From IMG/VR virus record IMGVR_UViG_2645727843_000011: 32,239 bases of DNA. One strand, written 5' to 3'. Both the position numbers and the translations under genes were made by a program. The DNA is from a virus. Its lineage: Duplodnaviria > Heunggongvirae > Uroviricota > Caudoviricetes. How positions within the stretch are numbered: the first letter of the stretch is position 1; each line of letters opens with the position of its first letter. This document shows positions 14,351 to 15,290 of this stretch, in pieces. The notes beneath the pieces are model-generated. The model saw only the letters and a list, made by a program, of their open reading frames with translations. It did no database searches and was not told the origin of the DNA.

Positions 14351-14433
14351 GCATGTGAGATTGCACAATATATAAAAGTTATGCTATCTGGATTCATTTG
14401 TAGAACTACCAGACAACATTCAAGGAGAGCGTA
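14351..14433. promoter_or_regulatory. Divergent intergenic region: putative late promoter for V (- strand) and promoter for the 261-aa cargo gene (+ strand)
   Basis: 83-bp AT-rich gap between divergent starts; P2 has an Ogr-dependent promoter upstream of V (established knowledge); AGGAG RBS for the + strand gene at 14423..14427. Confidence 0.35.
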
Positions 14434-15219
14434 ATGGTCAGCTATAATGTGACTAATGTGTGGGGGCTAATCGTTTTTTTCCTTTGTAGCTTTGCAGTAT
14501 TAGCATTTTTTAGCTTTGGTAAAAGTAACCTTATGAGGCTTATTGCACATTATTTCAATTTTGGATATTCAGACAAAAAATTAAAAAGACTTGACCGCGA
14601 GTGGCGCGACATTCAACTATTTAAAATAATTAACGGAATCAATGTATCAGGCATTGAAAATGTGAGAATGATACAGCAGGGACTGATTGATGGAAAACTA
14701 AAAACATCGTATTTTTTCCTTACTCGCATCTGGGGTGACATAACAAAAACACCACACATAATTAAAACAATAATTGTAATTCTGTCCAGTATTTTTTACA
14801 TTCTCCTCGCATGTTACATACACAACGAACAATCCGTTATAGTAAGGGATGCCATAGGCATACCATATAAAAACATGATGTACTATGTTTATAGTGACAA
14901 AGTTCTTTTATCCTTCAAAAATAAAGCAGTTGAATTTAATAAAACTTATAGCCTTGCCGATTGCAAGAGACTGCAAAACGTATTTATAAAAGACACACTT
15001 CCTGAAATCGCCTGCAATAAGCTCTTACAGTTAAACGAGGAGGACTCCGAATGGTTAAGCCAGGAGATTAAAGATAATAACAGTCACAAAAAAGCATTAT
15101 CAATACTATCCCTCGTCTATTTCACTTCAGGTCTGGTTATATTCCTGTCATATACAAAATTCTTTTACGCCAATAAGAAGGTTTTAGAATACAAAGCATC
15201 AAATAAAAATCACTCATAA
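14434..15219 (+). CDS. Hypothetical membrane protein, 261 aa, AT-rich cargo gene at the orf30-equivalent position
   Basis: ATG at 14434 with an AGGAG RBS; three hydrophobic segments (WGLIVFFLCSFAVLAFFSF, IIKTIIVILSSIFYILLACYI, ALSILSLVYFTSGLVIFLSY); opposite strand to the flanking late genes; Lys/Asn/Ile-rich composition. Confidence 0.7.
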   Translation: MVSYNVTNVWGLIVFFLCSFAVLAFFSFGKSNLMRLIAHYFNFGYSDKKLKRLDREWRDIQLFKIINGINVSGIENVRMIQQGLIDGKLKTSYFFLTRIWGDITKTPHIIKTIIVILSSIFYILLACYIHNEQSVIVRDAIGIPYKNMMYYVYSDKVLLSFKNKAVEFNKTYSLADCKRLQNVFIKDTLPEIACNKLLQLNEEDSEWLSQEIKDNNSHKKALSILSLVYFTSGLVIFLSYTKFFYANKKVLEYKASNKNHS

Positions 15220-15228
15220 ACCTCTAAA

Positions 15229-15264
15229 CATTGAGCGACCAGCATGGCCGCTCAATGTTTAATT
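15229..15264. terminator. Putative bidirectional terminator hairpin between the cargo gene and S
   Basis: 9-bp inverted repeat cattgagcg / cgctcaatg with an 11-nt loop, followed by TTTAATT on the + strand and preceded by a T-rich run on the - strand. Confidence 0.4.
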
Positions 15265-15290
15265 GCGCATCAGCCTCTGCCTGGATAAAA

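What the first reader, a model, noticed from the sequence alone, without database searches (positions are those of the whole stretch)
14351..15290. AT-rich 261-aa membrane protein inserted antisense between V and S (orf30-equivalent slot)
It interrupts the otherwise contiguous - strand late operon, is on the opposite strand with its own RBS and a terminator-like hairpin, and has three predicted TM segments. Its composition is very different from the flanking genes. Likely a lysogenic-conversion or exclusion gene expressed from the prophage.
Basis: partly seen in the sequence, partly recalled or inferred. Interest (0 to 1): 0.5.

Follow-up and report, generated by a model that had tools for sequence, protein, structure and literature searches.

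The report
Phage P2 orf30, membrane accessory gene
This is the long-known but never-explained gene orf30 of phage P2, an AT-rich add-on gene for a three-pass inner-membrane protein; it belongs to a very variable family that keeps the same slot in many P2-like prophages and is most likely a prophage gene that protects the host from other phages, though nobody has tested that.

Summary
A 261-codon ORF (14434-15219, + strand) lies between V and S. It has 33.6% GC against 51.9% for the rest of the window, a strong Shine-Dalgarno, three TM segments and a stable hairpin downstream. It is P2 orf30 itself (98.5% aa identity; annotated 'nonessential', function unknown; PHROG 2407).

One point is wrong. 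It does not interrupt an operon. In P2 it lies between the O-operon terminator and the Ogr-dependent PV promoter.

New here:
- Orf30 belongs to a wider family of about 44 clusters at 50% identity. All 28 aligned members share the 3-TM layout, and 27 have exactly two periplasmic cysteines (one has three).
- The family is distantly related to Pfam DUF6216.
- Members only 18-25% identical occupy the same V|S slot, antisense and AT-rich, in P2-like prophages of Serratia and in 12 IMG/VR contigs.
- Two near-identical Serratia prophages carry alleles only 45% identical.
- Intact copies survive in decayed prophages.
- dN/dS is about 0.45, against 0.07-0.13 for the flanking genes.

There was no homology to SieA, RexB, Fun(Z) or PADLOC models, and no fold match.

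Best reading: a prophage-expressed inner-membrane exclusion or defence gene, like P2 old, tin and fun(Z). This is inferred, not shown. Known gene, moderate interest.

The parts
14434..15219 (+). orf30 coding sequence (261 aa plus stop). Predicted N-out/C-in inner-membrane protein with three TM segments.
   Evidence: ORF list. 98.5% aa identity to P2 Orf30 AAD03281. PHROG 2407 over the full length, E 1.4e-147. TM segments and GC. dN/dS 0.26-0.61 across 8 intact alleles.
14422..14429 (+). Shine-Dalgarno AAGGAGAG, 6 nt upstream of the ATG
   Evidence: Read directly from the sequence. AAGGAG is conserved before the start codon of distant family members.
14392..14419 (-). Ogr/activator-binding site of the PV late promoter. 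It ends 14 nt before the orf30 ATG. Its distal half (GACAAC/CACAAC) is the left boundary of the variable cassette in other P2-like phages.
   Evidence: P2 annotation 10239-10266 mapped onto the window. Junction comparisons.
14351..14391 (.). AT-rich PV core-promoter region, specific to orf30-carrying (P2-type) phages. The only place a + strand orf30 promoter could lie, and it holds only weak sigma-70-like matches (TGCACA-17-TATCTG with an upstream TG).
   Evidence: Alignment with empty-slot and alternative-cargo phages diverges immediately after the V ATG. Promoter scans.
15225..15261 (.). Stable hairpin 6 nt after the orf30 stop. Annotated in P2 as the rho-independent terminator of the O operon (- strand). 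It could also end the orf30 transcript.
   Evidence: P2 annotation 9397-9433. Folding -22.4 and -28.3 kcal/mol, z about -5.4 on both strands.
13715..14350 (-). Gene V (baseplate spike), first gene of the V operon. Left flank of the slot.
15291..15743 (-). Gene S (tail completion), last gene of the O operon. Right flank of the slot.

Best explanation
The feature is bacteriophage P2 gene orf30, carried here by a P2-like prophage.

Shown:
- It is a real protein-coding accessory ('moron') cassette under purifying selection.
- It lies in the gap between two late transcription units, bounded by the O-operon terminator on one side and the Ogr-binding site of PV on the other.
- It is on the opposite strand and is AT-rich.
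- The encoded protein has three TM helices.
- Loop 30-108 is helical and basic. It is the best-conserved region, with the motif D-x-Q-L-F-[RK]-x-x-N-G-[IV]-N-V...D-A.
- Loop 130-220 holds a four-strand sheet plus helices and an invariant cysteine pair.
- The C-tail is basic.
- These features give an N-out/C-in topology, with loop 1 in the cytoplasm and loop 2 in the periplasm.
- It belongs to a deep, hypervariable family (PHROG 2407, a remote relative of Pfam DUF6216).
- That family occupies the same V|S slot in P2-like prophages of several Enterobacterales genera, is swapped between close relatives, and is kept intact in decaying prophages.

Inferred:
- Like P2's other three AT-rich antisense genes (old, tin, fun(Z)), it is made by the prophage and benefits the lysogen by acting against other phages.
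- Because it is a lone inner-membrane protein with a periplasmic domain, the most likely mode is superinfection exclusion at the inner membrane. It would interfere with genome delivery by incoming phages, as P22 SieA does, without being homologous to SieA.
- Because the Ogr site lies directly before its ribosome-binding site, any promoter must overlap PV. Late activation by Ogr would then probably shut it off. This step is speculative.
For: Identity and synteny with P2 orf30.

Real gene:
- Open-frame statistics.
- Eight alleles of 79-98% identity, all intact with no indels. dN/dS is 0.26-0.61, against 0.06-0.22 for V and 0-0.20 for S.

Topology:
- Hydropathy.
- Across 28 family members the net charge is +5.1 for loop 1, -0.1 for loop 2 and +2.2 for the C-tail. 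Loop 2 has exactly two Cys in 27 of 28 members.
- AF2 model with pLDDT 84.8 and pTM 0.75.

Family:
- 44 representatives at 50% identity. All 28 aligned members hit PHROG 2407.
- DUF6216 is hit by 9 of 28 members, best E 8.7e-7.

Same slot, antisense, 32-38% GC against 49-59% in the flanks:
- Serratia loci L007, L008, L010 and L011.
- 12 of 12 IMG/VR loci, where V is 70-85% identical to the window's V but the Orf30 homologue belongs to a subgroup only 18-21% identical to Orf30 (identities from the representatives aligned; loci).

Cassette swapping: in L007 against L008, W/V/S/R are 91-99% identical and Orf30 is 45% identical.

Retention: the gene is intact while V, S and R are fragments.

Slot polymorphism in E. 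coli: 1630 of 5426 genomes have the region and 460 carry orf30. Most of the rest have an empty slot and a few have other cargo, including an HNH-like ORF.

Other positions: the int-att end of a 186-like prophage, and beside putAbiC in a remnant.

Analogy: old, tin and fun(Z) have 33-35% GC, lie antisense, and are annotated as blocking lambda, T-even phages and T5. P22 SieA is a 3-TM inner-membrane protein with sequence types less than 30% identical and a conserved cytoplasmic motif, encoded antisense next to late genes.
Against: - There is no expression or phenotype data of any kind. The P2 literature available here says only 'nonessential' or 'unknown'.
- No consensus sigma-70 promoter lies upstream. 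The best candidates score 7 of 12.
- There is no sequence or profile similarity to SieA, RexB, Fun(Z), any PADLOC model, or any annotated PHROG.
- No structural neighbour turned up in PDB or BFVD.
- Among close alleles the most variable parts are the TM helices (60-64% identity against 85-91% in the loops). This looks like relaxed constraint rather than an arms race on the periplasmic face.
- Major P2 defence-hotspot surveys do not list this slot.
- Most E. coli P2-like prophages do without it.
Confidence: 0.45

Rival explanations
1. Abortive-infection effector rather than entry block. Orf30 sits inert in the inner membrane. The conserved cytoplasmic loop senses an infection cue. The three-helix membrane part, probably as an oligomer, then depolarises or permeabilises the membrane and kills the infected cell before phage release.
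For: - The most conserved part of the family is the cytoplasmic loop, which suggests a conserved intracellular partner or trigger.
- Long amphipathic helices continue out of TM1 and TM3.
- One family member lies beside putAbiC.
- AT-rich toxic defence genes are commonly silenced, which would explain the missing strong promoter.
Against: - There is no similarity to RexB or to any PADLOC Abi model.
- There is no partner gene in the cassette.
- The conserved disulfide-bearing periplasmic domain has no obvious role in a purely cytoplasmic sensor model.
Confidence: 0.2
2. Lysogenic conversion unrelated to phages. Orf30 would be an envelope protein that changes host physiology, for example stress tolerance, nutrient or toxin (colicin/bacteriocin) uptake, or surface properties. 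That would benefit the lysogen and explain retention in dead prophages.
For: - Intact copies persist in decayed Serratia and other remnants.
- Inner-membrane location with a periplasmic domain.
- A homologue lies next to an Ail/Lom-type OMP beta-barrel gene in Enterobacter.
Against: - The family is hypervariable and is swapped as a cassette between near-identical prophages. That is more typical of conflict genes than of housekeeping-like envelope functions.
- The family is seen mainly in P2-like elements and their remnants. Two short metagenomic contigs showed no phage genes in the DNA available, and the Enterobacter copy lies at a contig end next to chromosomal genes.
- There is no similarity to any known envelope-modifying family.
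Confidence: 0.15
3. Lytic-cycle accessory function. orf30 would be expressed during P2 growth and would tune lysis timing, protect the infected cell from secondary adsorption, or assist DNA entry or exit. It would not be a prophage-expressed gene.
For: - It lies among late genes, with its start 14 nt from the Ogr site.
- The N-out/C-in three-TM topology is that of class I holins (this comparison rests on my own knowledge; the topology is).
- No independent promoter is recognisable.
Against: - It is antisense to both late operons.
- A TSS 55 nt to the right of the Ogr-site centre would fall inside the coding sequence, so Ogr cannot drive it in the usual geometry (inference).
- It is 2-3 times the size of holins and lies outside the Y-K-lysABC cassette.
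- It is absent from about 70% of E. coli P2-like prophages and from viable phages such as L-413C and WPhi.
- It is retained in remnants that can no longer grow lytically.
Confidence: 0.12
4. Functionless passenger. The AT-rich DNA would persist because it supplies the O-operon terminator and a PV promoter variant, and the ORF itself would be dispensable.
For: - The P2-type cassette carries the terminator hairpin and a distinct PV core region.
- The gene is nonessential.
Against: - dN/dS is below 1 in all 28 allele pairs, with no indels or stops.
- The architecture, cysteine pair and motifs are conserved down to 16-20% identity.
- Empty-slot phages manage without the cassette.
Confidence: 0.05

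Closest known systems
Bacteriophage P2 Orf30 (AAD03281; PHROG 2407)
   Same: 98.5% aa identity over all 261 residues. The neighbours (V, S), the strand, the terminator and the Ogr site are the same. This is the same gene.
   Different: Four amino-acid differences. The host prophage differs from P2 in its Z/fun, old/tin and immunity/int regions.
Pfam DUF6216 (PF19723), uncharacterised proteobacterial membrane-protein family
   Same: Nine of 28 Orf30-family members match it over nearly the full length (best E 8.7e-7). Two relatives carry the Pfam assignment and one is named 'DUF6216 family protein'. Length is similar, about 250-270 aa.
   Different: P2 Orf30 itself gives no hit even at E<=10. 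The one member whose score I read (P0041, 21.8 bits) is below the 27.3-bit cut-off. No function is known for the DUF.
P2 lysogenic-conversion genes old, tin and fun(Z)
   Same: They are in the same phage, have the same 33-35% GC, and lie on the same strand, antisense to the late genes. fun(Z) and orf30 each lie in a gap between two late operons, between the upstream operon's terminator and the next Ogr site. All are nonessential and polymorphic among P2-like phages.
   Different: There is no sequence relationship (Fun(Z) hhalign probability 0.2%). The P2 record gives no membrane annotation for any of the three. Their exclusion phenotypes are documented, while orf30 has none.
P22 SieA superinfection-exclusion protein
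   Same: - Predicted three-TM inner-membrane protein.
- Single gene.
- Encoded antisense right after late structural genes.
- Sequence types less than 30% identical.
- The conserved motif is on the cytoplasmic side.
   Different: It is not homologous (hhalign probability 0.3%). SieA is 162-164 aa, whereas Orf30 has loops of about 80 aa (cytoplasmic) and about 90 aa (periplasmic). SieA has a mapped promoter and a demonstrated DNA-injection block. Orf30 has neither.
Lambda RexB (membrane component of RexAB abortive infection)
   Same: A small prophage-encoded polytopic inner-membrane protein that acts against other phages.
   Different: It is not homologous (hhalign probability 0.1%). RexB has four TM segments and 144 aa, and it needs RexA, encoded next to it. 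The orf30 cassette is a single gene.

Membership tests
P2 Orf30 / PHROG 2407 | Full-length sequence match to the family profile and to P2 Orf30 | tested here: met
   PHROG 2407, E 1.4e-147, residues 1-261 on profile positions 1-261. tblastn 98.5% identity to AF063097 orf30.
P2 Orf30 / PHROG 2407 | Location between S and V, opposite strand, flanked by the O-operon terminator and the PV activator site | tested here: met
   Colinear 2.1-kb match to P2 at 97.9% nt identity, with annotated features.
Pfam DUF6216 (PF19723) | Score at or above the Pfam gathering threshold (27.3 bits) | tested here: not met
   The window protein has no hit at E<=10. Nine of 28 relatives hit (best E 8.7e-7), and two relatives are assigned PF19723. 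This makes it a remote relative, not a scored member.
P22 SieA-type superinfection exclusion | Sequence or profile homology to SieA | tested here: not met
   hhalign of the family profile A3 against P22 SieA gave probability 0.3% and E 0.2. No SieA-type PHROG was hit.
P22 SieA-type superinfection exclusion | Polytopic inner-membrane protein sufficient on its own | tested here: inconclusive
   Three TM segments are predicted and the cassette is a single gene. Membrane location and sufficiency were not testable here.
P22 SieA-type superinfection exclusion | Expressed from the prophage and blocks DNA injection of superinfecting phage | not testable with these tools
   This needs transcript mapping and infection, K+ efflux or DNA-entry assays.
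Lambda RexAB-type abortive infection | Homology to RexB and an adjacent RexA-like partner | tested here: not met
   hhalign probability 0.1%. No second gene lies in the slot in any locus examined.
Catalogued anti-phage defence systems (PADLOC-DB v2) | Match to any defence-protein HMM | tested here: not met
   No hits for Orf30 at E<=10. Across 28 members there were only single spurious hits at E>=0.007.
P2 lysogenic-conversion morons (old, tin, fun(Z)) as a functional class | AT-rich, nonessential, antisense to the late operons, polymorphic among P2-like phages | tested here: met
   GC is 34.0% against 32.8-34.8% for the other three. Strand and position. Presence/absence and cargo replacement.
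P2 lysogenic-conversion morons (old, tin, fun(Z)) as a functional class | Prophage expression and exclusion of a heterologous phage | not testable with these tools
   No report was found in the searchable literature.
Class I holins | Small (about 70-110 aa) three-TM N-out/C-in protein encoded in the lysis cassette | tested here: not met
   The topology resembles a class I holin. But the protein has 261 aa with two loops of 80-90 aa, lies outside the Y-K-lysA-lysB-lysC cassette, and hits no holin PHROG or Pfam family.

The most novel reading that the evidence does not exclude
The Orf30/PHROG-2407/DUF6216 proteins would be a previously unrecognised single-gene anti-phage system of the inner membrane, acting by entry exclusion or by membrane-triggered abortive infection. 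The S|V junction of P2-like phages, bounded by the S stop codon and the Ogr half-site of PV, would then be a further defence hotspot that current surveys have not named. Alleles would be exchanged as cassettes and domesticated in dead prophages.
Probability: 0.4. Interest if true: 0.6.

Novelty: already known. Interest (0 to 1): 0.35.

Why it matters
P2 is a reference temperate phage, and orf30 is one of its last sizeable genes without a function. P2's other three AT-rich antisense genes were early examples of prophage-encoded phage defence. Their slots later yielded many new defence systems.

This work shows four things. orf30 belongs to a widespread family. The family is tied to one slot. 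It is swapped as a cassette. It survives in dead prophages. Together these turn 'unknown, nonessential' into a concrete and cheap experiment: clone the gene and plate a phage panel.

A positive result would add a new membrane-based exclusion or defence family. It would also add another P2 hotspot, present in about 8% of complete E. coli genomes (460 of 5426). A negative result would point to a non-phage benefit to the host. As it stands, the finding is a correct re-identification of a known gene, so its surprise value is moderate.

Tried and rejected
- **Family scans of Orf30.** Pfam, NCBIfam and PADLOC gave nothing.
- **Sequence search of the PDB.** The single sequence and the profile returned only noise.
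- **The search for related loci.** The broad alignments A3 and A5 failed because no stretch was conserved enough. I used subgroups instead.
- **Context of the Enterobacter homologue P0005.** It lies at a contig end and tells nothing.
- **Literature.** There was no functional statement on orf30. Two candidate reviews and one preprint were not held. The accession search was empty. The Salmonella BTP5 lysogen transcriptome paper says nothing about this slot.
- **Promoter search.** The consensus scan found none upstream. A relaxed scan found only weak 7-of-12 matches. I do not claim a promoter.
- **Positive selection.** I considered it and rejected it. dN/dS is raised but stays below 1 in every pair, and the variation among close alleles is concentrated in the TM helices.
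- **Holin.** Rejected (see the membership test).
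Full report
**1. What is in the sequence**

The interval 14351-15290 is exactly the gap between the start codon of V (13715-14350, - strand) and the stop codon of S (15291-15743, - strand). It holds one long ORF on the + strand, 14434-15219, with an ATG start and 261 codons. AAGGAGAG lies at 14422-14429, 6 nt before the ATG.

GC is 33.6% for the ORF against 51.9% for the rest of the window. The GC profile falls to 0.33-0.34 only here.

With this base composition, 261 open codons have a probability of about 3e-9. The longest open run in 2000 shuffles of the region was 183 codons, against 271 observed.

Hydropathy gives three segments of 19-21 residues at about 9-29, 109-129 and 221-241.

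Six nucleotides after the stop codon lies a 37-nt hairpin (15225-15261). It folds at -22.4 kcal/mol on the + strand and -28.3 on the - strand, with z about -5.4 in both cases.

**2. Identity**

The 2.1-kb region is colinear with phage P2 at 97.9% nucleotide identity, and the protein is 98.5% identical to P2 Orf30. The P2 record calls orf30 'nonessential' and gives no function.

The same record annotates the hairpin as the putative rho-independent terminator of the O operon (O...R, S). It places an activator (Ogr) binding site for the PV promoter at the position matching window 14392-14419, and the V-operon start at the V ATG.

The gene therefore does not interrupt an operon. It lies in the gap between two late transcription units, antisense to both.

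The whole window is a P2-like prophage running from ogr to int. It is colinear with P2 except in the Z/fun slot, the old/tin slot, the distal part of H, and the immunity/integrase region.

The literature I could search says only that orf30 is of unknown function. It also says the slot is one of three regions where P2-like phages carry horizontally acquired genes (PMC3091744). WPhi and L-413C lack the gene (PMC2771037). R18C has a different 741-bp ORF there (PMC6823313). Burkholderia phage AB4 has a DNA methylase there (PMC13366799).

The recent P2 defence-hotspot papers do not mention orf30 or a hotspot between S and V. The 2026 survey does note less-populated hotspots within the P2 tail genes.

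**3. It is a real, constrained gene**

Eight alleles of 79-98% aa identity, from P2, five other phage genomes and this window, are all 261 codons long with no indel or stop.

| Gene | Pairwise Nei-Gojobori dN/dS | Typical value |
|---|---|---|
| orf30 | 0.26-0.61 | about 0.45 |
| V | 0.06-0.22 | about 0.13 |
| S | 0-0.20 | about 0.07 |

These values come from my own script. Selection is purifying but much weaker than on the structural neighbours, and dN is 5-10 times higher.

Among these close alleles the TM helices vary most, at 60-64% identity for TM1 and TM2. The two loops and the tail are 85-91% identical. I read this as relaxed constraint on hydrophobic helices, not as evidence of positive selection.

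**4. The family**

Orf30 has no Pfam, NCBIfam or PADLOC hit. It matches PHROG 2407 ('unknown function') end to end.

A word-indexed search found only five clusters at 90% identity. A full HMMER profile search of 1.84 billion representatives found 44 proteins, 36 of them at E<=1e-10. About 23 are full length (250-271 aa) and 16-31% identical to Orf30. All 28 aligned members hit PHROG 2407.

The architecture is constant:
- TM1, then a basic helical loop carrying the best-conserved motif (D-x-Q-L-F-[RK]-x-x-N-G-[IV]-N-V ... D-A; G68 and G87 are invariant).
- TM2, then a four-strand sheet plus two helices.
- A very long helix that contains TM3, then a basic tail (N-x-K...K254).

Across the family the mean net charge is +5.1 for loop 1, -0.1 for loop 2 and +2.2 for the tail. 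Loop 2 has exactly two cysteines in 27 of 28 members. Together these give an N-out/C-in topology, with loop 1 cytoplasmic and loop 2 periplasmic and disulfide-bonded.

AlphaFold2 with the 28-sequence alignment gives pLDDT 84.8 and pTM 0.75.

Nine of 28 members hit Pfam DUF6216, an uncharacterised family, over nearly their whole length (best E 8.7e-7). Two relatives carry that assignment. The family is therefore a remote branch of DUF6216, about which nothing functional is published.

**5. Genomic behaviour**

*E. coli.* Of 5426 complete genomes, 1630 contain the S-V region and 460 contain it with orf30. In an evenly spaced sample of the hits, about half have an empty slot, with 66 bp between V and S. 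A few carry other cargo: a 247-aa ORF with no family hit, and a 246-aa ORF with weak HNH-nuclease similarity.

*Cassette boundaries.* In the empty-slot locus L002 the distal half of the PV Ogr site (CACAAC) abuts the S stop codon directly. In the two alternative-cargo loci the sequence diverges right after the same CACAAC. So the cassette is inserted exactly between those two elements. The P2-type cassette additionally replaces the PV core region up to the V ATG.

*Same slot in distant hosts.* Family members only 22-25% identical to Orf30 sit in the same slot, on the same strand, in P2-like prophages of Serratia. Members of a subgroup whose representatives are only 18-21% identical to Orf30 do so in 12 of 12 IMG/VR P2-like contigs. 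In those contigs V is 70-85% identical to the window's V. In every case the gene has 32-38% GC and the flanks have 49-59%.

*Cassette swapping.* Two Serratia prophages whose W, V, S and R proteins are 99, 94, 91 and 97% identical carry Orf30 homologues only 45% identical. This points to cassette replacement from an old allele pool.

*Retention in remnants.* In three Serratia loci the prophage is decayed. In two of them (L010, L011) S is reduced to fragments, and R and V are also fragmentary in L010. The third (L009) has no V, S or R gene called at all. The Orf30 homologue is intact in all three.

*Other positions.* Other members lie at the int-att end of a 186-like Pantoea prophage, beside a putAbiC gene in an Erwinia remnant, and outside the V|S slot in another remnant.

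**6. What it most likely does**

Shown: it is an accessory, non-structural, mobile cassette that encodes an inner-membrane protein and is under selection, including in elements that can no longer make phage.

Inferred: it benefits the lysogen. Three lines support this.
- P2's other three AT-rich genes (fun(Z) 32.8% GC, tin 32.9%, old 34.8%; orf30 34.0%) also lie antisense to the late operons. fun(Z) and orf30 each lie between the terminator of the upstream late operon and the next Ogr site. All three are annotated as lysogenic-conversion genes that block T5, T-even phages and lambda respectively.
- The slot shows presence/absence, cargo replacement and deep allelic divergence next to conserved genes. 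This is the behaviour described for the P2 defence hotspots.
- A lone polytopic inner-membrane protein with a periplasmic domain resembles, in design only, P22 SieA. SieA is a three-TM protein encoded antisense just after late genes. Its sequence types are less than 30% identical, and its conserved motif is cytoplasmic (PMC10883804).

I therefore commit to superinfection exclusion at the inner membrane as the single most likely mode. Abortive infection by membrane damage is the main rival. A non-phage envelope function, a lytic-cycle role and a functionless passenger are less likely.

The Ogr site ends 14 nt before the orf30 start. Any orf30 promoter must therefore overlap PV, and Ogr binding would be expected to occlude it. 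This would fit 'on in the lysogen, off late', but it is speculation. No consensus promoter is present, and expression was not testable.

**7. Comparison with known families**

Membership in P2 Orf30/PHROG 2407 is met. Membership in DUF6216 is not met by score for this protein; it is a remote relative only.

Homology to SieA, RexB and Fun(Z) was tested by profile comparison and is absent, with probabilities of 0.3, 0.1 and 0.2%. No PADLOC model matches. So the claim 'works like SieA' rests on analogy. The claim 'is a SieA' is refuted.

**8. Verdict**

The operon statement is wrong.

The added value here is the definition of a widespread, slot-faithful, cassette-swapped membrane-protein family linked to DUF6216, and a clear experiment to settle its function. 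Interest is moderate (0.35). If the defence reading is confirmed, it would be a new single-gene membrane system and an additional P2 hotspot.

Noticed in passing
window 6818-9203: The Z/fun accessory slot of this prophage does not carry fun(Z). It holds three ORFs: a 129-aa hydrophobic ORF (6922-7311, +), a tyrosine-recombinase-like ORF (7334-8020, -; Pfam Phage_integrase 1.9e-16), and a DUF5677 protein (8025-8867, -; 4.7e-10). None hits PADLOC.
   Followed up: partly
window 24659-26131: The old/tin hotspot next to the portal gene is replaced by a single 311-aa ORF (24811-25746, -). It has no Pfam or PADLOC hit, so it is a candidate uncharacterised defence gene.
   Followed up: partly
window 10803-11274: Three overlapping BLAST matches, offset by 132 bp, hit the same 208-bp segment of P2 gene H. 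This indicates a 132-bp tandem repeat in the tail-fibre gene. The distal part of H (about 10025-11200) is otherwise unlike P2.
   Followed up: no
window 30381-32239: The repressor/integrase end is only 66-68% identical to P2. The prophage therefore has a different immunity and probably a different integration specificity. The closest E. coli relative (99.7% over the S-V region) lies between trhP and yegR.
   Followed up: no
window 14351-14419; L002 852-917; L007 7886-7965: The DNA between the V start codon and the Ogr half-site differs by cassette type. orf30 (P2-type) carriers have an AT-rich stretch. Empty-slot phages and phages with other Orf30-family alleles have a GC-rich hairpin (GCCGCC...GGCGGC) there. 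In empty-slot phages the Ogr half-site CACAAC abuts the S stop codon, so no separate O-operon terminator is evident.
   Followed up: partly
L003 935-1678; L004 927-1667; L024 2431-3756: Alternative cargo in the same V|S slot:
- A 247-aa ORF with no family hit (E. coli strain 144).
- A 246-aa ORF with CxxC...H...CxxC and weak HNH/Endonuclease I similarity (E. coli PM22). Its 741-bp length matches the R18C ORF16 described in PMC6823313, but I did not compare the sequences.
- A 441-aa ORF, not scanned against any family library, in an IMG/VR remnant.

   Followed up: partly
L009/L010 8001-8753; L011 8001-8762: In decayed Serratia P2-like remnants the Orf30-family gene is intact (250-253 aa). The neighbouring S is reduced to fragments of 49-79 aa, and R and V are also fragmentary in L010. 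This suggests domestication.
   Followed up: partly
L038 2337-2892 (P22 13336-13891): P22 sieA is arranged like orf30: a small three-TM gene on the opposite strand immediately downstream of late gene 16. This is a parallel in layout without any sequence relationship.
   Followed up: yes
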